In this document: one piece after another, positions 20,127-34,650 of the stretch | Position numbering within the stretch: position 1 is the first letter of the stretch | Layout: every line of letters starts with the position of its first letter | Origin: Candidatus Omnitrophota bacterium | Lineage (GTDB): Bacteria > Omnitrophota > Gorgyraeia > Duberdicusellales > 4484-171 | Length of the DNA: 64,000 nucleotides | Reading direction: 5' to 3' | Assembly (NCBI GenBank): GCA_003154195.1 | Contig: PMCS01000009.1 | Span: forward strand, 19,014-83,013 | The notes under the pieces: model-generated | Database searches by the model: none | The model's input: only the letters and a program-made list of their open reading frames with translations | What the model was told of the DNA's origin: nothing | Made by a program: the position numbers and the translations under genes

Positions 20127-20285
20127 ATGGCAAAATCTGAAGAAAAACGTAAAAATTGCGCGCAATGCAACAAATCAATGAAAAGGGTAGATTGGTATTA
20201 CCGTAATGACGGCTATTTCTGCAATAAATCCTGCTTCAAAGAACACCTCAAAAAACAGGCGCAGGAACAACCGAAGCCCGCTTAA
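20127..20285 (+). CDS. Small (52 aa) zinc-ribbon-like protein between the two PilZ genes (not in the supplied ORF track)
   Basis: MAKSEEKRKNCAQCNKSM…GYFCNKSCFKEH: CxxC…CxxxC. Confidence 0.4.
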   Translation: MAKSEEKRKNCAQCNKSMKRVDWYYRNDGYFCNKSCFKEHLKKQAQEQPKPA

Positions 20286-20301
20286 AAAATCCTTGAATAT
20301 G

Positions 20302-20682
20302 ACTGAAAGAAGAAAGTATCCGCGAATAGCTAAATCCTTGCCCTTAAAGATTTCCGATGACGGCCAATTCGATATCGTCACGGAAACTAAGAATATCAGC
20401 GCCAACGGCGTATATTGCTGCGTAAGCAAACCAATTAAAAACTTGACCAAATTAAGCATAATATTACTTATACCCTTCCAGAAAAACAAAAAAGAAAGTA
20501 TTCGAAAAGTAAAATGCGAAGGCATCGTGGTGCGGGAAGACGAAGCGGAAAACATAAAGGACAACGGAAAACACCCTTATCGCATCGGCATATTCTTCAA
20601 TAATATAAAAGAACGCGATAAAAAAAGTCTTGCTACCTATATCGACTCGCATCTGACGGCCGGCAGCAATACCCCCATTTAA
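20302..20682 (+). CDS. PilZ-domain protein (second copy); ORF is open from 20206
   Basis: ERRKYPR and NISANGVY motifs. Confidence 0.65.
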   Translation, partial: TERRKYPRIAKSLPLKISDDGQFDIVTETKNISANGVYCCVSKPIKNLTKLSIILLIPFQKNKKESIRKVKCEGIVVREDEAENIKDNGKHPYRIGIFFNNIKERDKKSLATYIDSHLTAGSNTPI

Positions 20683-21233
20683 TGCTTTATAAGGCTTACC
20701 CCTTACCCGTAAAATTCGTCTGCGCTTTTATTTATTCCGACCCCGCCGTTTATCAGCAGACAAAATCGATCATGGAAAGGAAATTCGGCCGGGTAGACTT
20801 TGAAAGCCAAACCATCGATTTTAATTTTACCGACTATTACGAAAAGGAAATGGGTAAAAACCTGACAAGGCGGTTTATTGCTTTCACGAAATTAGCCCGG
20901 GCCGATAATTTTGTGAAAATAAAAGATTTTTGCCTGAAACTGGAAAAAAAATTCGCGCGGAATAACAAACGAATCATAAATATCGATCCCGGCTATCTGA
21001 CCGAAGCAAAACTGGTGCTGACCACGACCAAAGACTTCCACCACCGGATATATATCGGAAAGGGGATTTTTGCGGAGGTCACGCTCAGTTTTTGTAAAAA
21101 AGAGAACAACTTCCTGGATTTTCCCACTACTTTTCCCGACTACCGCACGCAAAGATATAAAGACATTCTTTTAGGCATCCGCTCGACCTATAAAGAACAG
21201 TTGAAACTTTTGCCTTCCCGTAAAATCAATTAG
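20682..21233 (+). CDS. Conserved hypothetical protein (DUF4416-like)
   Basis: LPVKFV…INIDPGYL…HRIYIGKGIFAEVTL pattern recalled for that family; no function inferable. Confidence 0.45.
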   Translation: MLYKAYPLPVKFVCAFIYSDPAVYQQTKSIMERKFGRVDFESQTIDFNFTDYYEKEMGKNLTRRFIAFTKLARADNFVKIKDFCLKLEKKFARNNKRIINIDPGYLTEAKLVLTTTKDFHHRIYIGKGIFAEVTLSFCKKENNFLDFPTTFPDYRTQRYKDILLGIRSTYKEQLKLLPSRKIN

Positions 21234-21274
21234 CCGAAAGGATACATAAAGAAATAATCTTGGGAAATTCGGGG

Positions 21275-21496
21275 AAATTCGGGGGACAGCTACCATAATT
21301 ATCCTTGACACCCTGTCTGCTTTTGCTACAAATTCGGGGGACAGCTACCATAATTATCCTTGACACCCTGTCTGCTTTTGCTAAACTTACCCCATGCCGA
21401 GAATGGCCAGAGCAAATTCGGGGGACAGCTACCATAATTATCCTTGACACCCTGTCTGCTTTTGCTAAACTTACCCCATGCCGAGAATGGCCAGAG
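21275..21496 (+). repeat. Tandem array U,(U+V),(U+V) immediately upstream of and overlapping the RAYT start; U carries the REP-like motif GGGGACAGCTACCATAATT; V duplicates the RAYT 5' end including ATGCCGAGAATGGCCAGAG
   Basis: Three near-identical direct copies at 21275, 21330 and 21415. Confidence 0.7.
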
Positions 21497-22143
21497 TAGT
21501 TATACCCGATATACCCCACCATATAATCCAAAGAGGTAATCGCCGTCAGCCGGTATTCTTTTCTGATGCCGATAAAAGAGCCTACCTGGATTATCTTCGT
21601 CTACATGCAAAGCCGGCCGGAATAAGCATCTGGGCATATTGCCTGATGGACAACCATGTACATTTAATCGCTGTGCCTAGGCATGAAGACAGTTTTGCCG
21701 ATGGCTTAAGCGAATCTCACAAACGTTATAGCCGTATGGTAAATTTCCGGGAAAACTGGCGCGGCCATCTCTGGGAGGGGAGATTCAAATCTTACCCATT
21801 GAATGAATTCCATCTATACGCGGCGATAAGATACGTTGAAAGAAATCCCGTACGCGCTAAAATAGTAAGACAAGCCTGGCAATACCCCTGGTCAAGCGCT
21901 CAATCTCATGTAAAGAAGGAAAAAGACAGTATTGTGGATAATTGTTTTATCTCTGATGAAATAAAAAACTGGGCAGAATATATCGCCCAAGAAGACAACG
22001 ACAACGATCTGGTACTATTCAGAAAACATTCCAACACAGGGAGGCCGCTGGGGGATAATAAATTCATCGATCTTCTTGAGGGGATAACCGGACGCATATT
22101 ACACAGGAAAAAACCCGGCCCAAAGATGGTCAAGGACAAATAA
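21478..22143 (+). CDS. IS200-like Y1 HUH transposase / REP-associated tyrosine transposase (RAYT), copy 1
   Basis: MPRMARVVIPDIPHHIIQRGNRRQ…, HUH motif DNHVHLIAVP, catalytic Tyr in AIRYVERNPV. Confidence 0.8.
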   Translation: MPRMARVVIPDIPHHIIQRGNRRQPVFFSDADKRAYLDYLRLHAKPAGISIWAYCLMDNHVHLIAVPRHEDSFADGLSESHKRYSRMVNFRENWRGHLWEGRFKSYPLNEFHLYAAIRYVERNPVRAKIVRQAWQYPWSSAQSHVKKEKDSIVDNCFISDEIKNWAEYIAQEDNDNDLVLFRKHSNTGRPLGDNKFIDLLEGITGRILHRKKPGPKMVKDK

Positions 22144-22160
22144 TTATGGTAGCTGTCCCC
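22142..22160 (+). repeat. Inverted copy (aattatggtagctgtcccc) of the 19-mer directly after the RAYT1 stop
   Basis: Exact reverse complement of ggggacagctaccataatt. Confidence 0.6.
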
Positions 22161-22200
22161 AGAATTACCAGAATTACAAAGACCTTATAACAGTCCCCAT

Positions 22201-23145
22201 ATGATAAATAGCCGAAAAATCAAAGCCTTAGAAAAAATAGCCAAACCCCTCAACGACCGCCTTAAGGAATGCGACCTTTGCCCCCGAAACTGCAAAATCG
22301 ACCGCTTTAAGCAAAAAGGGTTCTGCAGCGTAGGCAGCCAGATGATTATCTACACGGCTTTTTTACACACCGGCGAGGAACCGCCGTTAATAACCGGGAA
22401 GGGGAGCGGAACGATATTTTTTTCCGGCTGTAACCTGAAATGCTGCTACTGCCAGAATTATAAATTTTCCCACACCCCGGAAGGCCGGATAGTAAGCGAG
22501 GAGGAGTGCGGCCGGATCATGCTTAACCTGCAAAAAAAAGGCGCCGCCAATATCAACCTGGTAACGCCCACGCATTACCTTCCCTTGATACTCAATGCAC
22601 TGCGGATAGCGTTTAAGAACGGCCTGGATATACCCCTGGTTTATAACACCTCCGGGTATGAAAAAACGGAGATCATCCGCCGGCTCAAAGGTATCGTCGA
22701 CGTCTACCTTGCCGACGTAAAATACATCTCCGGCGAAACCGCGGGAAAATATTCCCGGGCGGAAAACTACCCGTTTTACAACCAGGAAAGCCTGCGGGAA
22801 ATGTACCGGCAAAAACCCGCAGTTTTAGACGCAGACACACTGAAGGAAGGGTTAATCGTACGCCACTTGGTTTTACCGGGCCACAGCGAAGAAACCCGGC
22901 AGATTCTTTGCTGGATTAAAAAAAATATGCCCGACGCGCTGGTCAGTATAATGTTCCAATACCAGCCGTATTTCGAAGCCGCAAAATATCCGGAAATAAA
23001 CCGGATAGTAAGTTTAGAAGAATTCACCCGGATAAAAGAACTGGTCGACGAACTTGGCCTTCCCGGATGGGTACAGGAATATACCCCTGAAGAAAAACTG
23101 GCCGGAGTCTATTTCGAACCCCTTTCCGAGGATTTGTTGGAGTAA
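22201..23145 (+). CDS. Radical SAM enzyme (AmmeMemoRadiSam-system / PFL-activase-like)
   Basis: CNLKCCYCQN CxxxCxxC cluster, upstream CDLCPRNC…FCSVG motif. Confidence 0.7.
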   Translation: MINSRKIKALEKIAKPLNDRLKECDLCPRNCKIDRFKQKGFCSVGSQMIIYTAFLHTGEEPPLITGKGSGTIFFSGCNLKCCYCQNYKFSHTPEGRIVSEEECGRIMLNLQKKGAANINLVTPTHYLPLILNALRIAFKNGLDIPLVYNTSGYEKTEIIRRLKGIVDVYLADVKYISGETAGKYSRAENYPFYNQESLREMYRQKPAVLDADTLKEGLIVRHLVLPGHSEETRQILCWIKKNMPDALVSIMFQYQPYFEAAKYPEINRIVSLEEFTRIKELVDELGLPGWVQEYTPEEKLAGVYFEPLSEDLLE

Positions 23146-23304
23146 GAAGGCTCCTGCCAAACCACCAAAAAACATACCTCAAAAACTCTCAGAAACCCCC
23201 TTTTAAGCTATAGAACCGACAAAAGCATATCAGGGGATACCTAAAAAATCACCTCCTTAAAAACGTTTTAAAACCGTAAAATCAGAAGAATTTACCCCAA
23301 TTAG

Positions 23305-23346
23305 TCCTTCGACTCGCTATCGCTCGCTCAGGATAATTCGACTACA
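23305..23346 (+). repeat. Copy of the CGCTCGCTCA/CCTTCGACTCG dispersed repeat family
   Basis: tccttcgactcgctatcgctcgctcaggataattcgactac. Confidence 0.4.
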
Positions 23347-23559
23347 TCCAGCTCTGATTTCAAATAAAACCAGAGCTGGGTAAGTCTCATTAAGAAACAA
23401 GCACATTTACCGCTATTTATAACATAATCATTCAAGATAAACAGATAACGCAGAATATACCTAAAACGGTAAAAGGTCCGGCGTCATTTCACAGGAAGTT
23501 ATCCCGAATGGAAAAAATCAATACTGTCTTGCCATTCCAGCGATTTCTGATATTTATAA

Positions 23560-23590
<31 letters not shown>

Positions 23591-23748
23591 GCTATATTCC
23601 CCTTGTTTTCATTGTTTAGTTGCTAATGGGGTTTTTAAACGGGATTTTATCTTCTTTTGAGGGTTATTCTTGCGGACAAAACGCACTCTCATCTACAGCA
23701 GTTTCCGGCGGGAAAATAGATTTTATTTTTGGTAAGTTTTAAGGTAGT

Positions 23749-24057
23749 CTATTTTCCCGGAGGGTTATCCGGGGAAGAATTTATCCGGATGATTTTTCCT
23801 TTCGCCAACCCTTCGGCAATCACGTGACGCGCTGCCTTAAGGATCCGGCCGAAGGTCTGCCGGGATATGCCCATATGCCCGGCTGCAGCCTCCTGTTCCA
23901 GGCCTTCGTAGTCGGCAAGCCGAATGGCTTCAAAATGGTCCAAACCGAGCTCGACTTCGTCGGGCCGGCCGGGCTTACCCCGGGGGCTGAATTGCCGGAT
24001 ATCCGGTTCCTTATCGATTACCCGTTGTTTCTTAGGACGTCCTTTTGGTTTCATCAT
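23749..24057 (-). CDS. DUF134/UPF0251-family small DNA-binding protein (sigma-70 region-4-like HTH)
   Basis: MMKPKGRPKK…VELGLDHFEAIRLADYEGLEQEAAAGHMGISRQTFGRILKAARHVIAEGLAKGKII pattern. Confidence 0.55.
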   Translation of the reverse strand: MMKPKGRPKKQRVIDKEPDIRQFSPRGKPGRPDEVELGLDHFEAIRLADYEGLEQEAAAGHMGISRQTFGRILKAARHVIAEGLAKGKIIRINSSPDNPPGK

Positions 24058-24438
24058 AAAAAATTACTCCGTAATTTTTTATCGGTCATGAAAACCTGCG
24101 GGTTTTCCGTCAAAAACGAGACTTTCCCTTTATTTTATTGTGAAATAAACCCCCCGGTTATTATGAGCGTATGCTCATAAATAATATACAAGATTTCCGG
24201 CGAAACTCAAGCGGTTTTTAGGTTAAGACGAGTATCTTTCGCAAGACAGATTTTTGAAGCTCCCCCGACGTGTTCCGGCGGAAAAATCTCTCCGAAGCCT
24301 CTTCACTGTAGGTGACGGGCGAAGGCGGATTAAAACATGGGGCAACAAAAAACGGCAGCAAAAAGCGGTATTGTAAAAATCTTCGGCGGAAGCGCCTTAA
24401 AATTTTCGGTGACTATCGGACAGACCTTAGGGCTGTCC

Positions 24439-27400
24439 CTACTTCCCCCACGCCTTCCCCGCCAATTCATCAATCGTCTCCTTCGCCGAGACATCCTTCA
24501 TAAACGTAATCACGAATTGCAGGCGGTCGAAATTGGGATTCAGGGGACTGCTGGTTATGGCTTTATCCAGGCCTTCACCTTTGGTTTCCAGGTTAAAGTT
24601 ATTAGCGGTGACGTCGATGCCGCCTAAAGGCGTTGAGCCGGTTGTGTCCGTTAGGTCTGTTGAGCCCGTTAAAGGAAGCGGCGAGGCGGCGGATTTTGTC
24701 TTAACCGTTGCTACCGGGGAATTTCCCCGGCCCATAAATTGACCATTGAAAGGGGTTACTTCTTCCTCGAGACTTCTATGCAATGCGGAATATTTCTCTG
24801 CCTGCTTTTTGTTCCCTACAAGCCGATAAAGATCGGCCATATTTTTATAGTATTCCAAAATAGATACGGCACGCGAGTAACCGATACCTTTTTTACCCCC
24901 TGTATAATGATAATCAGTGGGTACCAACTTCTCAAGTATAGCAAGAGCCTTGATGGCCGCGGAACGCTCCTGGTTCGGTTCACCGATTTCATGGTAAAGC
25001 TCTACCAGTTTTAGATAGTCAAAAACTAAACCTTTTTTTTCTTCATTAAAAGGAGTTGGCGAAATTTTTTCATCGGCGTTTCGATAAACCGCGGGAATCT
25101 CCCGTTCTATTATTTTGATTTTTCTGGCATATACCTCGGCCTCTTTCTCCGGCATATGAGTATCCCTATACAGTTCCCGAAAACCGTCAAGAACATCAAG
25201 GGAGTCCGGCGATAATTCCAAAGCCTTGCGCAACGCACCTAATGCCTTATTGAAATATGTCCCTTCTGTCAAAAACCGCTCGGCGCCATGGATAATCCCT
25301 ATACTGGTATAAGTTACGCTTATTCCCATATAAGCATGAATATTATTTGGGTCAGATTTCAGCGCTTTCCGGTAAAGTTCCAATTGTTCTGGATATGGGG
25401 TGATATAGGCGTCATCTCTGTGCGCTACGGCCAGATAAGAACGTATCATCCCATCGTTAACACCCAATCTTATCTGTTGGGGCAAATCCTGCCTTATCGC
25501 GTCGTTGGCTTTTAGATACACCCCGTAGGGATGGAATAAATCGTAGAGAATAAAAGGTTGGCTTATTCCTACTTCAGAATTAGCAAGATCGACAATAACA
25601 GAACGCCCGCCTGGCAATCTTACCAGGGAAGCAATATGCAGTGTCCAGCCTCGCCGGTTGTGCCGGACAACTTCCATCGGTATCGCATCGTACCTTAAAG
25701 CCCTCGCGAGAACTAAAAATAATTGGGTTCCGCCGATGCAATTAGCTTTTTTCACCTCTAAAACGACATTCAAATCAAAAGGATATACCCCGGATTCAAT
25801 ATTAAATTTACCCTTAATCGCGGCGTATAATTCCTTAAGCCTTCCTGCCTCGTCCCCACCCGGGCTAAAGCGATAAGTATTTAAATCGGGAAACAAATTA
25901 ACTAATTCATGAACGATAGCTTGCCGTGATTTTTTATCGTAACCGAAATCCTCAAGTTGCTTACGCATCTCAAACTGCTGCCGTACATTTTGCAAAGCCC
26001 CCTCATGTTCGGAATCGCCCGCGCGATTAGCCGCGGTAATGGGCTCAGATCGATAACTCCGCTGCGGCGGTTGAGACGAAAGTAACTCATGGCCGGCGTC
26101 GGTAAGGCCCAAAATCCGCAGCTTGTCTTTCACTACTTTTCCCGCTACTGCTGCCACTCCCGCCAACAAACCGAATAAAAAAAGACCCCTGCGGGACATA
26201 TCTACCGGCGAGGCAGCGGCTGGCGAAAGTTGGTCTCTCGGAAAAGTTATAATAACAGTCGTGCCTATTACATTTTCATTGCTGACATCCATAATTCTTT
26301 TTCCATTTTGATATTGCGTAAACTGATATCCTGTATCGTTTTCTCGTTCGGAAACAAAAGAAATTTCGAAATTCCCTTTAGCTGTGTCTAAAATAGAACG
26401 TGTCGCATATCCTCGCCCAAGTGGTTTTGAGGTTCTATATTCGCCATTAACCCAGCTCTGGAAAATATCTTTTCTTATCCCTGCTCCATTATCAGATAAG
26501 ATTACCCTTGTTCCACCAGTCTGAGAATCACGCTGTATAAAAAATGATATTGCAGCTTTTCCAGAAACCTGCCCACGAACACTATCATCAGTAATATTAT
26601 CAATTCTCTCATAGACAGCATCAACAGCATTATCCACAAGATGGCCAACAATACTGGCCACACGCCCCTTGTCAACCGATGAAAGCTGGCTGTCTCTTAA
26701 AATAGTCAGAATATCTGCGACGATTTTTTTATCACCTGCGTTTCCTAAATATATTTGGCGAGCATCTGTAGAAAGCGCGCCTGGCGGCATATATGGGAAC
26801 TTCTCAGTAAAAATAGGGAAATTAATCGAAGCAGCGCCGTTGGCCGCAATAGATCCCGCCGCCGTCGGCGAACCTAACGGCACGGCCCGTTCTGGCCGGA
26901 ACAGGGTTGGCGAGGCGGCAACTTTTTTTCCAAAAGGAATCGTCCAGGTTACAGTAGTACCGGCGGTAATGCGGTGTCCCACGCTAACCTCATTATGGGA
27001 ACGGTATCTTCTCATGACATGCGCGCCGTCTTGGTGATGATAGGTATCGAATTCGATTGTCCCGCCGTAGCGGTTGACCAGCGCATCACCGTAATAGTTA
27101 CGCACATCGGTACCTACTCTTCCCAATGTCTCATCTTCCCTGCGCTTTTTTGTGCTAACAGGTTCATCGCTGAAAAGACGGCCCAGGGTGTCGACGGTTA
27201 TCCCTATACCGTTATCGCTAACTTTTATCACCAGACGGTCGTGCTCCACGCTAAAGCTGACTTCTATCATCCCTTTATATTCAGTTTCTTGCCTGGTCGC
27301 TTCCTTCGCGATACCGTCAATCGCATTATCCAGGGCCCCGCTTAAAGAAATTTGGAATGTACCATACTCATCATCACCTATCCATAAAACGGGATAATCG

Positions 27401-28926
27401 AGAGCAAGACGCAACGGCGATATTCCATGCAGTTGACTTGCGATGTCGGGAAATATTCCTAATAATACTCCGGACAAATTATTCGCTATGCCAAGTAAGT
27501 CATGAGTTTTCGTATGGGGCTTGATGATAAAATCAAAGGGTGGTAATTTTTTTTGCCACGGGATGTTTACAGATTTGGCTTTGCCTGGCGTTTTTTGGCC
27601 TGCATCGGGCGAAGATACGCTTTTATCCTTGTCTACAGCTCCTAGCGCTCTGCCTACTTCTTTACCTGTTAACTCTTCCTGCGTCAAAAACGCAGACCCA
27701 ACAGCCTTTAGTCTCCCTAAGCACGAATTTGCTGCCGGGTTTACGCCGACCTGCAAATTTAATTCCACGCGCATTGTTTCTCTAAAAGCCTCCGCTCCAA
27801 ACACCATCCCTCCAGAAGTATACCTGCGCCTTACCGGGTTTTTCCCCAATCGTTCTTCTTTCTTTACGCAGTTATATACTCCTTTTTTATAGGCTTCTAC
27901 GTAGAGGTTAAAAATCTTATCTTTTACGTTTTTGTCCTTTAGGTCTATCCCGGATATCTTCCCCTTATCGATGTAGGATTTATAGAAGGAATCTTTGAAT
28001 TTCTTACGGAACCAGACGGCGAGGACGAGAGAGTTATAGATCTGGCGCAGCGTGGCAAAGTTCTTGCCGTGGTTGACTTCCTGGTTGACTTCAGGGAGGA
28101 TGACTTCTTTGAAAACCCTTGACGCAATTTCTTCAGTTTTTCCTTTTTCGTCCTTCGTCCTTCCTCCCTCGTCCTTCTTTGTTTTTTCATCCTTCATCCC
28201 TCGTCCTTCATCCTTCGGTAGATTACGCTGCTGCGCCACGTAATCCCTCTCATGCATGACTTTTAAGCTCGCCTCGAGGACAAACGCCGTGTCTCCTTTC
28301 TCATAGACGACGCTCTTCTGAGGCATGACCCAAACCTTGTTATAAGTATTAACATCCTTCATCCCTCGTCCTTCATCCTTCATTACTGCCGTTACGCTGT
28401 CCCAGTATCTCTTTCCCAGTTCTGTTCCGGGGTAGGTCAAAGAAGAAACGAGTTGCTTCAGGCAGTAATCCTGGCCTAACAGATCTTTGCCGAGATCGGT
28501 CAGGGCTAAATTGTCTGAAGCAACACGTTCTCCTTCAAACGGTGACAGGTTGACCCATAACTCTTCCTGGGGAAGAGTTAACCCTGCCAGAAAATACTTG
28601 ATCAGACGGTCGGCTTCTTCTTTAGATACGTCATCTTTATTGGCAGTATCGACGAGGAATTCGATATTGAGAGGGTTTTTAGGATTAAAACGTAAGCCCT
28701 TCAAGACCGGGTAAGAGAATTTTTCGGATACTGAAAGGAGTTTGGTGGGTAGAGGGAGATTATAGACACTAGACGCCGGTTGCGGCGCGGGCACGACTTC
28801 GGATAAAGCCAGTGGGCTGAGCGAAGAAAAAAATACCGCCAAGGCCAGAAATACGGCGATAGCTTTGAAACCCGAGGACGTACGGCAATACGCCCCTCCG
28901 TTTTTTCGGGGGATTATTTGGGTCAT
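24439..28926 (-). CDS. 1495-aa multidomain membrane protein: TM, KDEG-repeat low-complexity segment, two GHKL/HATPase_c-like domains, second TM, transglutaminase-like Cys-His-Asp protease-like domain, TPR repeats
   Basis: N-box/G1/G2-like blocks (LDNAIDGI…VSDNGIGI…RYGGTIEFDT; HLVDNAVDAV…LSDNGAGI…GRGYATRS); KANCIGGTQLFLVLARAL…WTLHIA…VIVDLAN; TPR-like LELYRKALKSDPNN…. Confidence 0.65.
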   Translation of the reverse strand: MTQIIPRKNGGAYCRTSSGFKAIAVFLALAVFFSSLSPLALSEVVPAPQPASSVYNLPLPTKLLSVSEKFSYPVLKGLRFNPKNPLNIEFLVDTANKDDVSKEEADRLIKYFLAGLTLPQEELWVNLSPFEGERVASDNLALTDLGKDLLGQDYCLKQLVSSLTYPGTELGKRYWDSVTAVMKDEGRGMKDVNTYNKVWVMPQKSVVYEKGDTAFVLEASLKVMHERDYVAQQRNLPKDEGRGMKDEKTKKDEGGRTKDEKGKTEEIASRVFKEVILPEVNQEVNHGKNFATLRQIYNSLVLAVWFRKKFKDSFYKSYIDKGKISGIDLKDKNVKDKIFNLYVEAYKKGVYNCVKKEERLGKNPVRRRYTSGGMVFGAEAFRETMRVELNLQVGVNPAANSCLGRLKAVGSAFLTQEELTGKEVGRALGAVDKDKSVSSPDAGQKTPGKAKSVNIPWQKKLPPFDFIIKPHTKTHDLLGIANNLSGVLLGIFPDIASQLHGISPLRLALDYPVLWIGDDEYGTFQISLSGALDNAIDGIAKEATRQETEYKGMIEVSFSVEHDRLVIKVSDNGIGITVDTLGRLFSDEPVSTKKRREDETLGRVGTDVRNYYGDALVNRYGGTIEFDTYHHQDGAHVMRRYRSHNEVSVGHRITAGTTVTWTIPFGKKVAASPTLFRPERAVPLGSPTAAGSIAANGAASINFPIFTEKFPYMPPGALSTDARQIYLGNAGDKKIVADILTILRDSQLSSVDKGRVASIVGHLVDNAVDAVYERIDNITDDSVRGQVSGKAAISFFIQRDSQTGGTRVILSDNGAGIRKDIFQSWVNGEYRTSKPLGRGYATRSILDTAKGNFEISFVSERENDTGYQFTQYQNGKRIMDVSNENVIGTTVIITFPRDQLSPAAASPVDMSRRGLFLFGLLAGVAAVAGKVVKDKLRILGLTDAGHELLSSQPPQRSYRSEPITAANRAGDSEHEGALQNVRQQFEMRKQLEDFGYDKKSRQAIVHELVNLFPDLNTYRFSPGGDEAGRLKELYAAIKGKFNIESGVYPFDLNVVLEVKKANCIGGTQLFLVLARALRYDAIPMEVVRHNRRGWTLHIASLVRLPGGRSVIVDLANSEVGISQPFILYDLFHPYGVYLKANDAIRQDLPQQIRLGVNDGMIRSYLAVAHRDDAYITPYPEQLELYRKALKSDPNNIHAYMGISVTYTSIGIIHGAERFLTEGTYFNKALGALRKALELSPDSLDVLDGFRELYRDTHMPEKEAEVYARKIKIIEREIPAVYRNADEKISPTPFNEEKKGLVFDYLKLVELYHEIGEPNQERSAAIKALAILEKLVPTDYHYTGGKKGIGYSRAVSILEYYKNMADLYRLVGNKKQAEKYSALHRSLEEEVTPFNGQFMGRGNSPVATVKTKSAASPLPLTGSTDLTDTTGSTPLGGIDVTANNFNLETKGEGLDKAITSSPLNPNFDRLQFVITFMKDVSAKETIDELAGKAWGK
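28150..28390 (-). repeat. In-gene tandem 7-mer repeats (tccttca/tccttcg on the + strand) encoding (M)KDEG(R)G repeats
   Basis: Seen in the sequence at 28150-28240 and 28355-28390. Confidence 0.5.
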
Positions 28927-29118
28927 GAATAATCACCTTACTATTATCCCAACTTTTGCGTTAGAGCATGGCAAAAAACGCTGACTGGTGATTATAATTT
29001 AACATATCTAATCGGGAAAAACCGGATAAAAGGCAGGTTTTTTGGGGGTTTTTGAAAACGTTTACCGAAGCGGCTTTTCTGATGTTTGTGTCCGAAAGTA
29101 CCTACGGAATAAGTTTTT

Positions 29119-30186
29119 TTATTTTGTTTTTGCTCTCACCGCCCATCTCAATATCGCGCTCTTCGAGCGCGGATTATCATACCGCTCCTGGGGTGTCGGC
29201 CGGATGGGTTCGCGGCAGATATCGGAATATGCCCCCGTCGCCAATCCTTCATCGAAAAACCGGGCAACGCGGTTATCCTCGCCCGAGTGAAACGTCAGGA
29301 TTGCCGCCCGGCCGCCGGGCTTAAGGCAAATCGGCAGGTTTCTCAAAAATTGCTCGAGAGCGGAAAACTCATCGTTGACCGCGATGCGCAATGCCTGAAA
29401 AGTTCTCCTGATCGAAGTCGTTATTTCCTCCCGGGGATTTTCAAAAGATACTCCGGCCAGCGCCTCCCGTATGGCATCAGCCAGCGCAGTAGTCGTAGCA
29501 ATCATATTTTTGTTTTTATGAATCGCCCGGGCGATCTCGCACGCGTAAGGTTCGTCGGAATTGGCAAAAAGTATCTTCTCCAGGGCTTTTTCCGATATCG
29601 ATTTGACCAAGGCCGACGCAGGCTGGCCCCTTTGGGAGTTAAACCTTAAGTCGAGCGGCCCTTCTCTTTTAAAAGTAAACCCTCGCGAAGGATTATCAAG
29701 CTGCATCGATGAAACGCCGAGGTCGGCAAGAATGAAATCAAAACCGCCGCCGGCAGAATCAAGCAGTTTGGGGATACCGGCGAAGTTTATACGCCGGGCG
29801 ACAAATTCATTTTCGTTAAAGCCGGCCTTCCTGAGACGGGCCTCCGTGCGCGCTAATTCTACAGGGTCAACGTCGATACCAAAGATACGCCCTCCCGGGC
29901 TGACACGCGCCAGCAATTCCTGCGCGTGCCCACCAAAACCCAGTGTCGCGTCCAATCCAACCTGGCCGGGCTCAGGCCTAAGCGCTTCGATGACTTCCTT
30001 AACGCAAATCGAACGGTGCATCCCCGCGGGTGTCTTGCCGCTTTTTATGATCTTTTTTACATCGTCGGCATATTTTTCGAAATTAAGCTCTTTATACTTT
30101 TCTTCAAACCGGCGGGGATGCGTGCCCTTATAGCGTACGCGCCGCTTTCTTTTAGGTTCCTCATTACTTATGGTAGTATTTTCCAT
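29119..30186 (-). CDS. rsmH: 16S rRNA (cytosine1402-N4)-methyltransferase RsmH (MraW) with an N-terminal basic extension of about 55-65 aa; ORF is open to 30219
   Basis: TLGFGGHA, DVDP, ADLGVSSMQLD, TFHSGED, RSKSAILRWAV motifs. Confidence 0.8.
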   Translation of the reverse strand: MENTTISNEEPKRKRRVRYKGTHPRRFEEKYKELNFEKYADDVKKIIKSGKTPAGMHRSICVKEVIEALRPEPGQVGLDATLGFGGHAQELLARVSPGGRIFGIDVDPVELARTEARLRKAGFNENEFVARRINFAGIPKLLDSAGGGFDFILADLGVSSMQLDNPSRGFTFKREGPLDLRFNSQRGQPASALVKSISEKALEKILFANSDEPYACEIARAIHKNKNMIATTTALADAIREALAGVSFENPREEITTSIRRTFQALRIAVNDEFSALEQFLRNLPICLKPGGRAAILTFHSGEDNRVARFFDEGLATGAYSDICREPIRPTPQERYDNPRSKSAILRWAVRAKTK

Positions 30187-30190
30187 CGCC

Positions 30191-30892
30191 CTATCCGATA
30201 TTTTCTTCCAGCTCCCCAATGGATTCGCTGACTCGATGAAGCAAGGCGATGAGGCCGGCGCAGGATTTGTTTAAATCCGGACAAGCCTGGCGCAGGCCCC
30301 TTAACGCCTCAAGCGAACCGGTGACGGCCTTGGCGCAGACATCAAGCTGGGCGACACCGTCATGCAAGCCAAACTCATCTTTATCGTCCGCCGCCAGGAT
30401 ACCGGTTAAAGCGCGTTTCATTTTTACCGCCAACAACATGTGGTAGCGGGCGATAGTTTCAGTTTCTTTTTTTGCCGCGGGGTATTCCCGATAGGCGTAT
30501 TGGATAAACTTATGGGCGAAGCCCATATACTTATCGCATAACCCTGTTACCGGATGTTTATCGACGCGGCGCCCTGTCTCCCCTTCTTCCTCCACACTTT
30601 CCTGAGCGTCAAAAGCATCAGTATCGGTATCATGCTCTACCGCGAAATCCTCTAACCCCTGGAGCGCGTTACCAAAATGGGCTTCAAATATCTCCGGGAT
30701 GATTTCATGGTCATCGGGGTCGCGGCCAAGTGAAATATTGGTGACCTTTTGCTCAAATTCTACCTGGTAGACCCGGCATTTATTCTGGATAGAATCGGGG
30801 CATTGCTCGCACCACCGGTCGCAGAAATTATAGGGCGACTTCTTTTTAAGCCGTTCGTTTTCCTTGCGTATCCGCTCAATTCGTTTTGGCAT
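30191..30892 (-). CDS. Hypothetical protein with an N-terminal Cys cluster (CDRWCEQC…C) and an acidic middle region
   Basis: ORF only; no family recognised. Confidence 0.45.
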   Translation of the reverse strand: MPKRIERIRKENERLKKKSPYNFCDRWCEQCPDSIQNKCRVYQVEFEQKVTNISLGRDPDDHEIIPEIFEAHFGNALQGLEDFAVEHDTDTDAFDAQESVEEEGETGRRVDKHPVTGLCDKYMGFAHKFIQYAYREYPAAKKETETIARYHMLLAVKMKRALTGILAADDKDEFGLHDGVAQLDVCAKAVTGSLEALRGLRQACPDLNKSCAGLIALLHRVSESIGELEENIG

Positions 30893-31007
30893 CTTTTTAA
30901 CCCAAAAAGTATATCATGCGCCGCCTAAAATCAAACTCGGCACCTTCTATTAACCTTGAATTTTAAATGGCGGGAAAAAATATCGCACCAATTATAAATT
31001 GGCAGGG

Positions 31008-31355
31008 TTATAAATCTTTTTCGTCCACGTGGAATTTGTGGAGCATTCGATGCGCGACCGGCGATAAAACGATTCCCATCACGGCGATAAACACGAGCCC
31101 GCTGAAAAGAGCATAAAACGAAGCGAAAATTTTCGCGGCGTTGTTAACTAGCGAGTTTACCGGGCCCATGCCGCCTAAAATCATCGACGCGTTTAACAAC
31201 GCGTCGACCCACCCAAGGCCGGCAATCCAATGATATCCGGCAACCCCGATAAGCAAGGCGGCTAAAATCAATAAAACGGCGGCGGCCAGGCACCGCCCCA
31301 ATCTTTTTATGAAAACCAGAACCGAAGCTACTTTTTGGTGTTTGCGTTCGAACAT
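31008..31355 (-). CDS. Small membrane protein (2-3 TM), hypothetical
   Basis: Hydrophobic segments; no motif. Confidence 0.45.
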   Translation of the reverse strand: MFERKHQKVASVLVFIKRLGRCLAAAVLLILAALLIGVAGYHWIAGLGWVDALLNASMILGGMGPVNSLVNNAAKIFASFYALFSGLVFIAVMGIVLSPVAHRMLHKFHVDEKDL

Positions 31356-31494
31356 ATCTAAGAAAAAAGCCGCCCGCTTATGCCCAGGAAAACCTTTTAT
31401 TCTCCTTCGCCAAATCTTGCCACAGGATGGCTACGGAGATATGAAGCTAGATATCCCACGCCCTGCCTGCCGCGGGGAATACATTTGTGCTTCA

Positions 31495-32853
31495 TTACCT
31501 GACTTCTTCATAAAGTAAATATTCCGCGTCAATCAATCCCTGGCGATAAGCATTCTCTAATGAGTCCTTGAATGTTTGCATACCTTCGTTTTTACCGGTT
31601 TGGATAATCGACCGGATCTGCGCCCAATCGCCGTTTCTGATTATGCTTTTAACCGCGTCGGTAGAAGTCACGACTTCCGAAATAAGAGTAAACCCGCTCT
31701 TATCCATTCGCGGCAGTAACAGCTGGGTCGTCACGCCTCTTAGAACCAGCGCCAACCGGGAAAGCATATGGCGCTGCACCTCGGGAGGGAAAAAAGATAT
31801 TACCCGATCCAGGGCTTGAGTGGAATTAGCCGCGTGTAAGGTAGTAAATACTAAAATGCCGCTTTCGGCCGCGGTAATCGCTACTTCCATGGTTGCCTGG
31901 TCTAAAATTTCTCCGATAACCAATACGGTCGGGTCCTGGCGAAGGGCATTTCTCGCCGCGTTGGCAAAAGAAAGAGTGTCTACCCCTATCTCTCTTTGTT
32001 TTATAATACACTTTCGATCGGTATGCAAATACTCGATTGGGTCTTCCAGGGAGACGATTACCCCCTTTTTTTCTTGATTATATAGCTCCACTAAAGAAGC
32101 GATGGTCGTACTTTTACCGGAACCGGTCCTTCCCGCGATGATAATCAATCCGCTGTTATTATTCAACCATTTCTCGACCACGGGAGGAACTCCGATCTCC
32201 GAAGGTAAAGACACCCGATAGGGTAAAAGCCGGAATACCGCTTCGACTTTACGCCGCTGCATATGCATATTTACGCGGAACCGGATCTCTTTGCTGTAAG
32301 TATAAACAAAATTCAGTTCTTTTTCCGCCAAAAACTTCTTATGCCGATCCCTATCCAGCATCCCAAACAATAAACACTGCAGGCTATGCGAGTCAAAAAC
32401 TTCGCCTCCGGCGGTAACCCACTCTCCGATCTTCTTCATCACCGGAGGATAGCCTACGGTAAAATATATATCGATGACATTCTTTAAATTAACCCCCTGC
32501 AAAACCTTTTTTATATTAGCCCGGCGCAGGAAATCGTCTAGCTTGCCTTTATCCTCATCGTTGATTTTATCAATCTGGACGCCGACGATATATTCCTTAT
32601 CATCACTAACCTCGATTCGTGCCACGCGCCCTTCGAAAGAAATTTTATCCGCATCCGAAACAAGCATAGTAATTTTGAGCAGACTGCTCAACTCCATTAG
32701 TTCCTTACAAACAAAACCTACCCCCAGCAGCCCCATGTCTTGTCCGTAGACCTTAACCGCGATACCCAATTTACCGCTATCGAGAATTTTTTCATATTGC
32801 ATGGGAAAACGTATCAGCGTTCTTTCTTCCCGGCGATTATTTTTTCCTTTCAT
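31495..32853 (-). CDS. PilT/PilU-family type IV pilus retraction ATPase with an N-terminal PilZ-like domain (PilZ-PilT fusion); ORF is open to TTG 32895
   Basis: Walker A GRTGSGKST, PilT core (…LVIGEILD…TLHAANS…); N-terminal RREERT (RxxxR) plus D.S..G-like region; SD gggagg before ATG. Confidence 0.75.
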   Translation of the reverse strand: MKGKNNRREERTLIRFPMQYEKILDSGKLGIAVKVYGQDMGLLGVGFVCKELMELSSLLKITMLVSDADKISFEGRVARIEVSDDKEYIVGVQIDKINDEDKGKLDDFLRRANIKKVLQGVNLKNVIDIYFTVGYPPVMKKIGEWVTAGGEVFDSHSLQCLLFGMLDRDRHKKFLAEKELNFVYTYSKEIRFRVNMHMQRRKVEAVFRLLPYRVSLPSEIGVPPVVEKWLNNNSGLIIIAGRTGSGKSTTIASLVELYNQEKKGVIVSLEDPIEYLHTDRKCIIKQREIGVDTLSFANAARNALRQDPTVLVIGEILDQATMEVAITAAESGILVFTTLHAANSTQALDRVISFFPPEVQRHMLSRLALVLRGVTTQLLLPRMDKSGFTLISEVVTSTDAVKSIIRNGDWAQIRSIIQTGKNEGMQTFKDSLENAYRQGLIDAEYLLYEEVR

Positions 32854-32900
32854 TCCCCCTCCCATTATTGGCAGCGGCCTGTCAAAAACAAACAAATTTC

Positions 32901-33010
32901 AACCACATGATTGCACAGATTTCACTGAAAAATATAAATTCCGATAATGTAAAAAACTGAAAATCTTAAAAATCTGTGAAATCTTGTGAAATCAGTGGTT
33001 GCAGTTTTTA
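32901..33010 (+). repeat. MITE-like ~110-bp element with terminal inverted repeats aaccacatgatt.cacagatttcac; copy 1
   Basis: Matches 49398-49509. Confidence 0.5.
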
Positions 33011-33165
33011 TATCGCTTATAGTCTATCAGCTTAAAGACAAACAGCAAACAAGATACAGCACTCTTTAATTATAACAAAACGGGCAGGTTTTGGTAGAGT
33101 TTTAGCTTTTTATTTGAACTGCGGAAAACCGCCAATTTATTCGGCGGATGCCCGCCTTGCCCGCG

Positions 33166-33247
33166 GCTTCGCCGTGAGGCGAGCCGAGCAAGGCGAAGCA
33201 GGAATGCGGGGCAAATAATTCCTGCCTCGCTCGCCTCACGGCGAAGC
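33166..33247 (+). repeat. Long imperfect inverted repeat (gcttcgccgtgaggcgagc…/…gctcgcctcacggcgaagc) forming a ~30-bp-stem hairpin; contains a CTCGCTCGC core
   Basis: Seen in the sequence; GC-rich within AT-rich DNA. Confidence 0.5.
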
Positions 33248-33352
33248 CGTGGGCCTTATAGCTCATCAAGGCGGGCCGCCGCAGTCTGGCGGGATCATTT
33301 AGGTGAAGCCGGCGACGAAGTCGGCGGTAATTCACTTATATTTTAGCAGAAC

Positions 33353-33913
33353 TCAAAACGATGCCCTGAAAACATAGCTTATGGAGTTTTTTTTGAACTG
33401 GGGGCGGCCTTTGATATGAAAAACTTTCACGCTGAGCCTATCCTTTACCCATTCCTCTACATCTTTGGCTTTAAAGTACAGGTAAAATATATCCACTCCC
33501 AGAAGATCCCGCCACTTTTCCCTCAACACTTCTTTACCATCGCTATTTGTATTACTATTATCGGTAATTTGTGTTTTGAAATTAAAGTTATACCGGGTAT
33601 AAGCAAGTTTCTCCTGGGTGTCGCGGTAAGACACGTAAACTCTTTCGCCGGCATAACCTTTTTCCCGAATAAGCATCATCCAGCTATAATAGGTTAGATA
33701 ATCCGGGCGCAAGCGTACGGCCTTATCCGGTTTAGGGTTGAAATCGGATAAGTAAAGCGCTGGGGAATGGAAAAAATTTATCTGGCTGATTGAGCTAAAA
33801 GGTAGGATTTCTATAGCGCGGCCGTCGTCCTGCGCGCAAGCACTGGACGCGAAAGAAAAAATAACAATCCCGCCGATGATGGCCGCTATTTTCAGATGTT
33901 TCACATAGAACAC
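33353..33913 (-). CDS. Hypothetical secreted protein (signal peptide, AxA cleavage)
   Basis: ORF plus signal peptide only. Confidence 0.45.
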   Translation of the reverse strand: MFYVKHLKIAAIIGGIVIFSFASSACAQDDGRAIEILPFSSISQINFFHSPALYLSDFNPKPDKAVRLRPDYLTYYSWMMLIREKGYAGERVYVSYRDTQEKLAYTRYNFNFKTQITDNSNTNSDGKEVLREKWRDLLGVDIFYLYFKAKDVEEWVKDRLSVKVFHIKGRPQFKKNSISYVFRASF

Positions 33914-34639: not shown

Positions 34640-34650
34640 TTTTTGTTTTT

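What the first reader, a model, noticed from the sequence alone, without database searches (positions are those of the whole stretch)
24439..28926. 1495-aa two-TM protein combining tandem GHKL ATPase-like domains, a transglutaminase-like Cys-His-Asp protease-like domain, TPR repeats and a KDEG tandem repeat
The domain combination is unusual. It has two HATPase_c-like modules (DNAIDGI/DNGIGI/…GGTIEFDT and DNAVDAV/DNGAGI/GRGYATRS) with no clear HisKA phospho-acceptor between them (only a weak H-D-L-L-G motif). A predicted TM helix follows, then a papain/transglutaminase-like core (C in KANCIGGTQLF, H in WTLHIA, D in VIVDLAN) and TPRs. A simple positive-inside reading puts both ATPase-like domains on the non-cytoplasmic side, which is odd for ATPases. 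The N-terminal region contains a DNA-level tandem 7-mer repeat (KDEGRGMKDE…) that may be length-variable. A DUF134-type regulator lies just downstream on the same strand.
Basis: partly seen in the sequence, partly recalled or inferred. Interest (0 to 1): 0.62.

Follow-up and report, generated by a model that had tools for sequence, protein, structure and literature searches.

The report
Omnitrophota exported carrier protein with swapped cargo
This 1495-residue protein belongs to a very large, apparently undescribed family found only in Omnitrophota bacteria, in which a conserved signal peptide, front module and short tail bracket a freely exchanged middle "cargo"; here the cargo is two ATPase-like domains plus a captured secreted protease-like/TPR protein.

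Summary
The ORF (24439-28926, minus strand, 1495 aa) is real, and an independent assembly carries it intact. There are two HATPase_c/GHKL domains with no conserved phospho-acceptor His. There is a transglutaminase-like Cys-His-Asp core, weak in the query but supported by its homologues, followed by TPRs. There are two hydrophobic segments, a KDEG-coding 7-nt repeat, and DUF134 downstream.

Every close database relative matches only aa ~20-375 and aa ~1428-1480. These are a Sec-type signal peptide plus a ~320-aa N-module with no Pfam, NCBIfam or PDB match, and a ~55-aa C-terminal tail. Together they bracket unrelated cargo (HEAT, PGK, PPDK, PGM, methyltransferases, J domain, kinases and others).

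The family has at least 1469 clusters and at least 556 loci in species-representative genomes. Every informatively named source is Omnitrophota, and one MAG carries at least 9 copies. A 438-aa member has no cargo, so cargo sits between invariant ...YFSGG and GGIDL... motifs. Pairs with 80-90% identical N-modules mostly carry unrelated cargo.

The "second TM" is best read as the relic signal peptide of a captured secreted TGase-TPR gene.

Best reading: an exported carrier domain that displays or delivers swappable cargo. The anatomy is shown; the function is inferred.

The parts
24439..28926 (-). Whole ORF, 1495 aa, a single gene
   Evidence: The same ORF is present in the independent assembly L001.
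28801..28926 (-). Sec-type signal peptide (aa 1-42): n-region with R7, K8, R15, K21; h-region AIAVFLALAVFF; possible cleavage at A-L-S|E
   Evidence: The hydropathy peak is 2.29. Of 209 family members with complete N-termini, 207 have such a hydrophobic core and 205 have a net-positive n-region. Seventy-four have A-x-A, most often followed by Q.
27808..28764 (-). Family-defining N-module (aa ~55-373). Motifs: LKG..P.NPL..F.VD, LIKYFLAGLT.P..ELWVNLSP.E, TDLGKDLLGQDY.LKQL, NKVW, ILP...EVN.GKNFA.LRQIY, and the ending ..RRYTSGG
28147..28217 (-). Imperfect 7-nt array (GGACGAA on the coding strand) encoding a K/D/E/G-rich insert in the second variable loop of the N-module. It includes one exact 28-mer (28188-28215).
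   Evidence: This loop is gapped or variable across the family.
28353..28383 (-). Second copy of the 28-nt element (KDEGRGMKD, aa 183-191), in the first variable loop of the N-module
26827..27579 (-). Cargo 1: divergent GHKL/HATPase_c module (aa ~450-700). The N box is DNAIDGI and the G1 box DNGIGI. The G2 region looks degenerate by eye.
   Evidence: Pfam best stretch is aa 530-665. It is 42% identical to P0121, another family member with a different cargo arrangement. His474 is not conserved.
26239..26679 (-). Cargo 2: second GHKL/HATPase_c-like domain (aa ~750-896). Motifs: DNAVDAV, DNGAGI, GRGYATRS.
   Evidence: This is the second HATPase_c stretch in Pfam. NCBIfam aligns CckA to aa 750-839. 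Remote hits cover query aa 725-910. Similarity to cargo 1 is weak (E=0.003).
26125..26199 (-). Internal hydrophobic segment (aa 910-934, MSRRGLFLFGLLAGVAAVAGKVV), read as the relic twin-arginine signal peptide of the captured downstream module
   Evidence: Hydropathy 2.07. Many stand-alone TGase-TPR homologues begin with Sec or lipoprotein signal peptides. Only 19 of 103 family cargos have any such segment. Two have RR just upstream, and the other (P0064) carries a precomputed Pfam TAT_signal hit.
25477..25929 (-). Cargo 3a: transglutaminase-like / papain-like core (aa ~1000-1150) with C1063, H1097, D1113
25057..25419 (-). Cargo 3b: TPR repeats (aa ~1170-1290). The sequence up to aa ~1395 was not analysed further.
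24487..24645 (-). Family-defining C-terminal tail (aa ~1428-1480): ..LGGIDVTANNFNLETKGEGL....FDRLQFVITFM..
   Evidence: An iterated HMM finds it in 97 of 119 homologues, always 2-54 aa from the stop. It is present in 48 of 57 complete N-module ORFs in GTDB loci.

Best explanation
The gene encodes one member of a very large, Omnitrophota-restricted family of modular proteins built on a 'bookend' carrier. The carrier has three parts: a Sec-type signal peptide, a conserved ~320-aa N-module with no detectable relative in the solved structures searched, and a conserved ~55-aa C-terminal tail.

Shown:
- The two bookends occur once each, always at the two ends of the protein.
- They co-diverge.
- In a cargo-less 438-aa member they are separated by only ~15 residues.
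- Cargo of 0 to more than 3500 aa sits between the invariant motifs ...YFSGG and GGIDL....
- Cargo is replaced much faster than the bookends diverge.

Inferred:
- The N-module and tail fold together into one carrier domain with a permissive loop.
- The signal peptide sends the whole polypeptide across the cytoplasmic membrane.
- The carrier anchors, displays or hands on the cargo at the cell envelope or towards a host or prey cell. This fits the proposed episymbiotic or predatory lifestyle of Omnitrophota.

In this particular protein the cargo has two parts. The first is a pair of divergent GHKL ATPase-like domains of a type that recurs in other family members and in giant Omnitrophota proteins; they have no phospho-acceptor histidine, so this is not a histidine kinase. 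The second is a complete captured secreted transglutaminase-like Cys-His-Asp/TPR protein whose own, now internal, twin-arginine-like signal peptide is the 'second TM'. That module is most plausibly a protein-modifying or proteolytic enzyme with a TPR substrate-binding arm.
For: Family and anatomy:
- About 120 best hits match only query aa ~20-375, and some also match aa ~1411-1493. Their middles carry unrelated Pfam domains.
- The C-tail HMM finds the tail in 97 of 119 homologues. The N-module is always N-terminal and single, and the tail is always 2-54 aa from the end.
- The profile search finds at least 1469 clusters at E<=1e-10 and at least 556 loci in GTDB species genomes. Every informatively named source is Omnitrophota, and there are several copies per genome. 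At least 9 GY858-tagged paralogues come from one MAG. Tandem copies occur.
- The minimal member P0350 reads SP + N-module ...YFSGG + 15 aa + GGIDL... tail. The GG pairs are invariant.

Cargo swapping:
- N-module and tail identities correlate (Spearman 0.45; 0 of 500 permutations reach it).
- Of the 25 pairs with the most similar N-modules (77-91% identical), 18 share no alignable cargo.
- Cargo modules recur in other members: GHKL in P0121, P0132 and P0239; TGase-TPR in P0123 and P0252.

Export:
- 207 of 209 complete N-termini have a hydrophobic core and 205 have a positive n-region. Seventy-four have A-x-A, mostly followed by Q.
- 84 of 103 cargos have no internal hydrophobic segment.
- Many stand-alone TGase-TPR homologues have Sec or lipoprotein signals.

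N-module and tail packing (a hint only):
- In the full-length P0010 model the tail strands reach pLDDT ~85.
- The last hairpin of the N-module is ordered in that model, whereas it is disordered in the model of the N-module alone.

Gene reality: an independent assembly is identical in length.

Literature context: Omnitrophota giant proteins carry signal peptides or TM helices together with HATPase_c, methyltransferase, PGM, PPDK_N, HEAT and TPR domains (bioRxiv 10.64898/2026.06.07.730766; bioRxiv 10.1101/2023.11.21.568195).
Against: - Much of the family's cargo (PGK, PPDK, GAPDH, enolase, adenylate kinase, J domain, SNF2 helicase, XRE HTH, and the GHKL ATPases here) is normally cytoplasmic and needs ATP or cytoplasmic partners. 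That is hard to reconcile with a periplasmic or surface location unless the final destination is another cell's cytoplasm.
- No signal-peptide predictor, topology predictor or experiment was available. The signal-peptide call rests on my own hydropathy, charge and A-x-A counts.
- In the query's closest subfamily, basic residues also follow the hydrophobic core, so an uncleaved anchor is possible.
- No secretion-system gene or other partner is conserved next to family members.
- The N-module has many invariant polar residues and could be an enzyme or binding domain with a role of its own.
Confidence: 0.55

Rival explanations
1. Membrane-tethered cytoplasmic scaffold. The N-terminal hydrophobic helix is an uncleaved anchor, or is not membrane-inserted at all. 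The N-module, cargo and tail all stay in the cytoplasm. The family tethers metabolic and regulatory enzymes to the inner face of the membrane, as a set of membrane-bound metabolons.
For: The cargo repertoire is overwhelmingly cytoplasmic-type and ATP-dependent. GHKL domains need ATP. In the query's subfamily, basic residues flank both sides of the hydrophobic core. West-Roberts et al. themselves say some predicted extracellular localisations of such domains in giant proteins 'seem highly unlikely'.
Against: 205 of 209 N-termini have a net-positive n-region (median +3) before the hydrophobic core, which by the positive-inside rule puts the rest of the protein outside. Seventy-four have canonical A-x-A sites, mostly followed by Q. 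Part of the cargo is natively secreted: the TGase-TPR module with relic signal peptide, Peptidase_S8, and a TAT_signal-bearing glycosyltransferase module.
Confidence: 0.2
2. One reading: a stand-alone, unusual two-TM signalling protein. It would be an atypical histidine-kinase-like sensor whose tandem ATPase domains regulate a transglutaminase-like protease, possibly together with the DUF134 regulator downstream.
For: HATPase_c is significant. Histidine-kinase and anti-sigma-kinase models give weak hits. The protein has two hydrophobic segments. DUF134 is adjacent on the same strand.
Against: There is no HisKA hit, and His474 is not conserved in the nearest homologues. No response regulator was found among the ten neighbouring ORFs scanned. 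The DUF134 neighbour appears in 1 of 83 family loci. The same GHKL and TGase-TPR modules occur separately, in other combinations, in other bookend proteins. The only strongly conserved parts are the bookends. The exact domain combination has no orthologue in 5.8 billion proteins apart from the same organism.
Confidence: 0.08
3. Polyprotein precursor. The invariant double-glycine motifs at both cargo boundaries (YFSGG / GGIDL) are processing sites, for example for C39-type peptidases. Cargo would be cut free from the bookends after export. This is compatible with the best explanation as an extra step.
For: GG pairs are invariant on both sides of the insertion point. C39 and S8 peptidase domains are reported near the N-termini of Omnitrophota giant proteins and were proposed to cleave them. 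One family member carries Peptidase_S8 as cargo.
Against: There is no test of cleavage. The GG pairs can equally be structural turns of a split beta-sheet. No C39 gene was seen next to the gene. No leader-like consensus was noted around the GG pairs, though none was specifically searched for.
Confidence: 0.1
4. Artefact or decaying fusion. The ORF would be a misassembly or a recent non-functional fusion of two genes at the internal signal peptide.
For: There is an internal signal-peptide-like segment beginning with Met (aa 910). The middle part has no orthologue.
Against: The same uninterrupted ORF is present in an independent assembly, with 5 mismatches in 9.7 kb. The C-tail that defines the family lies downstream of the supposed junction, exactly where it sits in the 97 homologues that carry it. 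The Cys-His-Asp triad and the GHKL N and G1 boxes are intact.
Confidence: 0.03

Closest known systems
Omnitrophota giant multi-enzyme proteins ('Archaeovorin'-type; West-Roberts et al. 2023 bioRxiv 10.1101/2023.11.21.568195; Nielsen & Lui 2026 bioRxiv 10.64898/2026.06.07.730766)
   Same: Both come from the same phylum. Both have an N-terminal signal peptide or TM helices. Both hold a mosaic of highly divergent, normally cytoplasmic domains (HATPase_c, methyltransferase, PGM, PPDK_N, HEAT, TPR). Both raise the same localisation paradox.
   Different: Those proteins are 10,000 to 147,000 aa or more, often with many TM helices, C39/S8 peptidase and SecA-like domains, and secretion or pilus genes nearby. 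The family here is 0.4-4 kAA and is defined by one N-module and one C-tail. Neither paper mentions these. I did not find them in the eleven proteins of 3.3-7.5 kAA in my sample that share cargo domains with the query. There is no conserved neighbourhood.
Polymorphic toxin / effector families (CdiA, Rhs, MAF and similar)
   Same: Both are multi-copy families with conserved trafficking parts and a variable part that is exchanged far faster than the conserved part diverges.
   Different: In those families the variable module is C-terminal, is a toxin, and is paired with an immunity gene. Here both ends are conserved and the variable part is internal. The cargo consists of metabolic, regulatory or scaffold domains, and there is no conserved downstream gene.
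LapA-type T1SS adhesins (N-terminal retention module plus C-terminal secretion signal)
   Same: Both have a conserved N-terminal module and a conserved C-terminal ~50-60-aa element bracketing a variable body. A transglutaminase-like cysteine protease (LapG) belongs to that biology (from my own knowledge).
   Different: Those adhesins have no Sec signal peptide, and they carry RTX repeats and adjacent T1SS genes. Here a Sec-like signal is present in 207 of 209 complete N-termini. There is no RTX/HemolysinCabind hit and no T1SS genes nearby.
Histidine kinases / GHKL ATPases (Pfam HATPase_c)
   Same: The ATP-lid fold signature is present twice, with N-box Asn and the G1 box DxGxG.
   Different: There is no HisKA/DHp domain and no conserved His. 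The G2 box looks degenerate by eye. The domains belong to a divergent subfamily seen mainly in large proteins, including other family members, sometimes in three copies.
Secreted transglutaminase-like + TPR proteins (Pfam Transglut_core + TPR)
   Same: The triad is conserved (Cys invariant, His at least 90%, Asp 65-85%) and is followed by TPRs. Many stand-alone relatives of 250-650 aa begin with signal peptides.
   Different: Here the module is embedded as cargo, keeps an internal signal-peptide relic, and scores below the Pfam cutoff on its own.

Membership tests
Omnitrophota 'bookend' family (defined here; not in Pfam or NCBIfam) | N-terminal Sec-type signal peptide | tested here: met
   The query has an n-region of +4, a hydrophobic core with KD 2.29, and A-L-S|E. 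In the family, 207 of 209 complete N-termini have such a core. This is a heuristic; SignalP was not available.
Omnitrophota 'bookend' family (defined here; not in Pfam or NCBIfam) | Single N-module directly after the signal peptide, ending in ..R.Y(F/T)SGG | tested here: met
   The module is 34-67% identical to ~120 members over aa ~20-375. All invariant residues are present. RRYTSGG is at aa 367.
Omnitrophota 'bookend' family (defined here; not in Pfam or NCBIfam) | Single ~55-aa C-tail starting with GGID and ending within ~50 aa of the stop | tested here: met
   The HMM score is 58.5 bits (E=4.4e-18) at aa 1428-1480, 15 aa before the stop. GGIDVT is at aa 1435.
Two-component sensor histidine kinase | HATPase_c catalytic domain | tested here: met
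   E=3.9e-13 with two matched stretches.
Two-component sensor histidine kinase | HisKA/DHp domain with a conserved phospho-acceptor His | tested here: not met
   No HisKA model hits at E<=1. His474 aligns to non-His residues in P0121 and P0129.
Two-component sensor histidine kinase | Cognate response regulator in the neighbourhood | tested here: not met
   No Response_reg hit among the ten neighbouring ORFs scanned (20682-35886).
Transglutaminase-like / papain-like cysteine peptidase superfamily (Pfam Transglut_core) | Score above the Pfam gathering threshold | tested here: not met
   The query scores 13.2 bits against a cutoff of 23. Membership rests on transitivity: 28 of 62 homologues hit at E<=0.01 (best 3.7e-8), and P0127 is above the cutoff.
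Transglutaminase-like / papain-like cysteine peptidase superfamily (Pfam Transglut_core) | Conserved Cys-His-Asp triad in the right order and spacing | tested here: met
   The triad is C1063, H1097, D1113. Cys is invariant and His at least 90% conserved in 62 sequences. Asp is 65-85% conserved in 89 sequences.
Transglutaminase-like / papain-like cysteine peptidase superfamily (Pfam Transglut_core) | Papain-like fold | not tested
TPR repeat proteins | At least two TPR units detectable | tested here: met
   PDB consensus TPR proteins match at E=2e-5, with two stretches covering aa ~1178-1273. Pfam TPR models are individually below cutoff.
Omnitrophota giant proteins (Archaeovorin-type) | Length of at least 10,000 aa with many TM helices and C39/S8/SecA-like domains | tested here: not met
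   The protein is 1495 aa with two hydrophobic segments and has none of those domains.
Polymorphic toxin systems | C-terminal toxin domain plus an adjacent immunity gene | tested here: not met
   The C-terminus is the conserved tail. No toxin family is hit. The downstream gene is DUF134 and is not conserved.
T1SS LapA-like adhesins | RTX repeats, no Sec signal, adjacent T1SS genes | tested here: not met
   There is no HemolysinCabind hit. A Sec-like signal is present. No ABC/MFP/TolC genes are nearby.
Anti-phage defence or phage protein | Match to PADLOC or PHROGs models, or presence on viral contigs | tested here: not met
   There are no hits in either library. Only 3 loci were found in 2.9 million viral contigs.

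The most novel reading that the evidence does not exclude
The N-module plus C-tail would be a previously unrecognised, phylum-wide cargo platform. It would be a split carrier domain, exported by Sec, whose permissive loop captures whole genes (sometimes with their own signal peptides) and swaps them by recombination among paralogues. Through it, Omnitrophota would place cytoplasmic-type enzymes outside the cell or into a host or prey cell. These include ATP-generating glycolytic enzymes (PGK, PPDK, adenylate kinase), kinases, chaperone J domains and, here, GHKL ATPases with a protease. This would be a new effector-delivery or extracellular-metabolism strategy, and a small-scale key to the puzzle of the phylum's giant multi-enzyme proteins.
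Probability: 0.25. Interest if true: 0.85.

Novelty: new variant of a known kind. Interest (0 to 1): 0.68.

Why it matters
Omnitrophota are ultra-small, mostly uncultured, probably host-dependent bacteria. Their signal-peptide- and TM-bearing giant proteins full of 'cytoplasmic' enzymes are an open puzzle.

This gene exposes a much smaller and far more numerous relative of that phenomenon, with a clean anatomy: one conserved front module, one conserved tail, a fixed insertion point, and cargo that is swapped rapidly. Such a family is experimentally tractable. A 438-aa cargo-less member and members of 0.8-2 kAA can be expressed, localised and solved. That makes it possible to ask where these enzyme fusions go and what they do.

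The N-module also appears to be a new domain. It has no Pfam, NCBIfam or PDB relative despite thousands of sequences.

For annotation, the result means that domain hits in such proteins (for example 'histidine kinase', 'phosphoglycerate kinase') should not be read as ordinary cytoplasmic functions without checking for the bookends.

Tried and rejected
I used full-length P0010 instead. Coordinates are not returned, so contact between the N-module and the tail could not be measured.
- The AFDB Foldseek library was unavailable.
- The N-module gave no convincing family match in Pfam (best E=0.02) and nothing in the PDB profile search. The full protein matched nothing in that region in NCBIfam. The full protein and the minimal member P0350 matched nothing in PADLOC or PHROGs.
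- A word-index search of the middle 959 aa found only the query itself. The exhaustive HMMER search was needed to find remote relatives.
- I looked for conserved gene neighbours: two context look-ups plus tblastn of 11 window neighbours against 83 loci. Nothing recurs.
- I tested the histidine-kinase H-box idea ('THDLLG'). The His is not conserved.
- Five literature searches and two Omnitrophota giant-protein preprints gave no description of the N-module, tail or family. The JBC paper on SpeD fusions in Omnitrophica is unrelated.
- Coevolution (DCA) between the N-module and tail was not attempted. About 150 paired sequences are too few.

Full report
The ORF 24439-28926 (minus strand, ATG start) encodes 1495 aa. 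Pfam finds HATPase_c at E=3.9e-13 with two matched stretches, plus HATPase_c_3. NCBIfam gives only weak partial hits to histidine-kinase, anti-sigma-kinase and Hsp90 models. The quoted motifs are present at aa 533, 571 and 621 and at aa 765, 812 and 837. The TPR models are each below their cutoffs, but consensus TPR proteins in the PDB match at E=2e-5. Transglut_core is only E=0.11 in the query. Kyte-Doolittle scanning finds exactly two strong hydrophobic segments, aa 14-47 and aa 910-934. Tandem Repeats Finder reports period-7 arrays at 28147-28217 and 28353-28383. There are also two exact 28-nt copies, encoding KDEGRGMKD at aa 183 and 238, where none is expected by chance. DUF134 lies downstream on the same strand. 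An independent ENA assembly (L001) carries the same 1495-aa ORF with two substitutions and no length change. That argues against a misassembly and against the repeat varying in length between these two assemblies.

In a search of 5.8 billion proteins, essentially every hit (830-2578 aa; nearly all named ones are Candidatus Omnitrophica/Omnitrophota) aligns only to query aa ~20-375 at 34-67% identity. Some also align to aa ~1411-1493. Their middles carry unrelated Pfam domains: HEAT, PGK, PPDK/PEP-utilisers, PGM, GAPDH, enolase, aldo/keto reductase, J domain, methyltransferases, SNF2 helicase, XRE HTH, Peptidase_S8, protein kinase, receiver and glycosyltransferases. An iterated HMM shows that a ~55-aa C-terminal tail is present in 97 of 119 of these proteins, always 2-54 residues from the stop. 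Its consensus is ..GGIDLNAKSFNIQTKGQG......F.GLTPVIISITPI... The N-module occurs once, directly after the N-terminal hydrophobic segment. It has 33 invariant columns, including WVNLSP.E, T..G...L..D..LKQ, K.W, F...RQ and Y.SGG.

**The family is huge and restricted to one phylum.** A profile of the N-module retrieves at least 1469 clusters at E<=1e-10 among the 8000 candidates scored. All the names are 'hypothetical protein'. Among the 80 loci listed, most titles name Omnitrophota/Omnitrophica or Candidatus Aceula. The rest are MAGs labelled 'Planctomycetales', 'Planctomycetia' or simply 'bacterium', which I take, without checking, to be mislabelled Omnitrophota. Several loci come from the same genome. 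One MAG (locus-tag prefix GY858) has at least 9 members with different cargo. Tandem copies occur. Of 57 N-module ORFs complete within the fetched loci, 48 carry the tail. Only 3 loci were found in 2.9 million viral contigs. PADLOC and PHROGs give nothing. No gene recurs next to family members.

**Cargo is an insertion at a fixed point and is exchanged quickly.** The 438-aa member P0350 has no cargo. Its N-module ends ...PRKYFSGG and is followed by 15 residues and then GGIDL..., the tail. The GG pairs on both sides are invariant. The query has RRYTSGG at aa 367 and GGIDVT at aa 1435. Across 103 proteins, N-module identity and tail identity correlate (Spearman 0.45; 0 of 500 permutations reach it). 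Yet of the 25 pairs with the most similar N-modules (77-91% identical, tails 54-85%), 18 share no alignable cargo. An example is P0016/P0017 with 0 of 561 residues aligned; the query and P0002 are 80% and 71% identical with 0 of 1008 aligned. So the bookends are inherited together while the middle is replaced.

**The cargo of this protein.** The middle (aa 441-1399) has no close relative. Exhaustive HMMER finds 142 remote ones, which fall into three blocks.

1. aa ~450-700 is 42% identical to P0121, another bookend protein in which the GHKL module follows a methyltransferase.
2. aa ~725-910 is the second GHKL domain.
3. aa ~985-1280 matches many stand-alone proteins of 250-650 aa as well as segments of other bookend proteins (P0123, P0252).

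The GHKL domains keep the N box and the G1 box. By eye the G2 region is degenerate. His474 of 'THDLLG' is not conserved in the nearest homologues and no HisKA model hits, so this is not a histidine kinase. The subfamily recurs, sometimes in three copies, in other large proteins.

For block 3, the Cys is invariant and the His at least 90% conserved in 62 sequences. Twenty-eight of the 62 hit Transglut_core (best 3.7e-8), and nearly all have TPRs. Many stand-alone homologues begin with Sec or lipoprotein signal peptides. The query's internal segment MSRRGLFLFGLLAGVAAVAG lies ~90 residues upstream of this block, begins with Met, and has a twin-arginine motif. I therefore read it as the relic signal peptide of a captured secreted TGase-TPR gene rather than a designed second TM. 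Only 19 of 103 family cargos have any internal hydrophobic segment. The one other case with RR just upstream (P0064) carries a precomputed Pfam TAT_signal hit.

**Export.** Of 209 family members with complete N-termini, 207 have a hydrophobic core and 205 a net-positive n-region (median +3). Seventy-four have A-x-A within 14 residues, most often followed by Q, as in 'ANA|QTLNLP'. The query fits this pattern: +4 n-region, core AIAVFLALAVFF, A-L-S|E. This is a heuristic. No dedicated predictor was available.

**Context and literature.** The window looks like an ordinary chromosomal stretch. It includes RsmH, a PilZ-GspE-like ATPase, a small PilZ protein, DUF4416, an IS200-like transposase, a radical SAM protein, an HD phosphohydrolase, glutamine synthetase III and UvrD. 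Two preprints describe Omnitrophota giant proteins (>=10 kAA) that carry signal peptides or TM helices and mosaics of HATPase_c, methyltransferase, PGM, PPDK_N, HEAT and TPR domains. They note that predicted extracellular positions of such domains are puzzling. Neither mentions the N-module, the tail or this mid-size family. My other searches found no description either.

**Mechanism.**
- Shown: family membership, bookend anatomy, the fixed insertion point, rapid cargo exchange, the identity of the cargo domains, the absence of a phospho-acceptor His, and the integrity of the gene.
- Inferred: the signal peptide exports the chain. The N-module and tail fold into one carrier domain. The carrier anchors, displays or passes on cargo at the envelope or to a host or prey cell. 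The TGase-like/TPR unit acts on proteins there.
- Main difficulty: ATP-dependent, cytoplasmic-type cargo, including the two GHKL domains here. This keeps a rival alive, namely a membrane-tethered cytoplasmic scaffold (confidence 0.2).
- Other rivals: a dedicated sensor-kinase reading (0.08), GG-site processing as an added step (0.1), and an artefact (0.03).

**Verdict.** The finding is real and more interesting than described, but for a different reason. The domain combination is one instance of a phylum-wide, apparently undescribed carrier-plus-cargo family with a novel N-terminal domain. I rate it a new variant of a known kind (Omnitrophota exported multi-enzyme fusions, or polymorphic effector-like families), with interest 0.68.

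Noticed in passing
window 35981-39451 (-): A 1156-aa ORF is a complete EF-G (GTP_EFTU through EFG_C, aa 463-1141) preceded by a ~460-aa N-terminal extension with no Pfam hit. It lies in a locally GC-richer stretch (0.51-0.53, against 0.38-0.50 in the other 2-kb windows).
   Followed up: no
window 21275-21496: There are exact tandem repeats (55 bp x2 and 84 bp x2) overlapping the start of an IS200-like Y1 transposase gene (21478-22143, +). The independent assembly L001 has one 84-bp unit fewer, so the copy number varies between assemblies.
   Followed up: partly
window 28188-28215 and 28353-28380; proteins P0027, P0036, P0037 and others: The query carries the same exact 28-nt element in two variable stretches of the N-module. 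About 15 other family members carry short in-frame peptides (GRGNPAPT, VGANN[YH]SPA, GT[GC]TGSP), mostly in the same part of the module and three of them twice. This suggests small repeat elements colonise permissive loops.
   Followed up: partly
window 31495-32895 (-) and 20206-20682 (+): A PilZ-GspE-like secretion ATPase and a small PilZ protein flank the gene within ~4 kb. PilZ and T2SS/T4P genes are reported next to Omnitrophota giant genes. This linkage is not conserved in 83 family loci.
   Followed up: yes
query aa 367-373 and 1435-1440; alignment A2: The cargo insertion point is bracketed by invariant double-glycines (..YFSGG and GGIDL..). These could be structural turns or double-glycine processing sites.
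   Followed up: no
L085 2704-7425; L066: Family members occur in tandem. The cargo-less 438-aa P0350 is immediately followed by a 1110-aa member with cargo, and L066 holds three N-module ORFs.
   Followed up: partly
window 11768-13414 (+), 30191-30892 (-), 31008-31355 (-), 33353-33913 (-): Several ORFs of 115-548 aa have no Pfam match. Two of them lie between the PilZ-GspE gene and rsmH, upstream of the gene studied.
   Followed up: no
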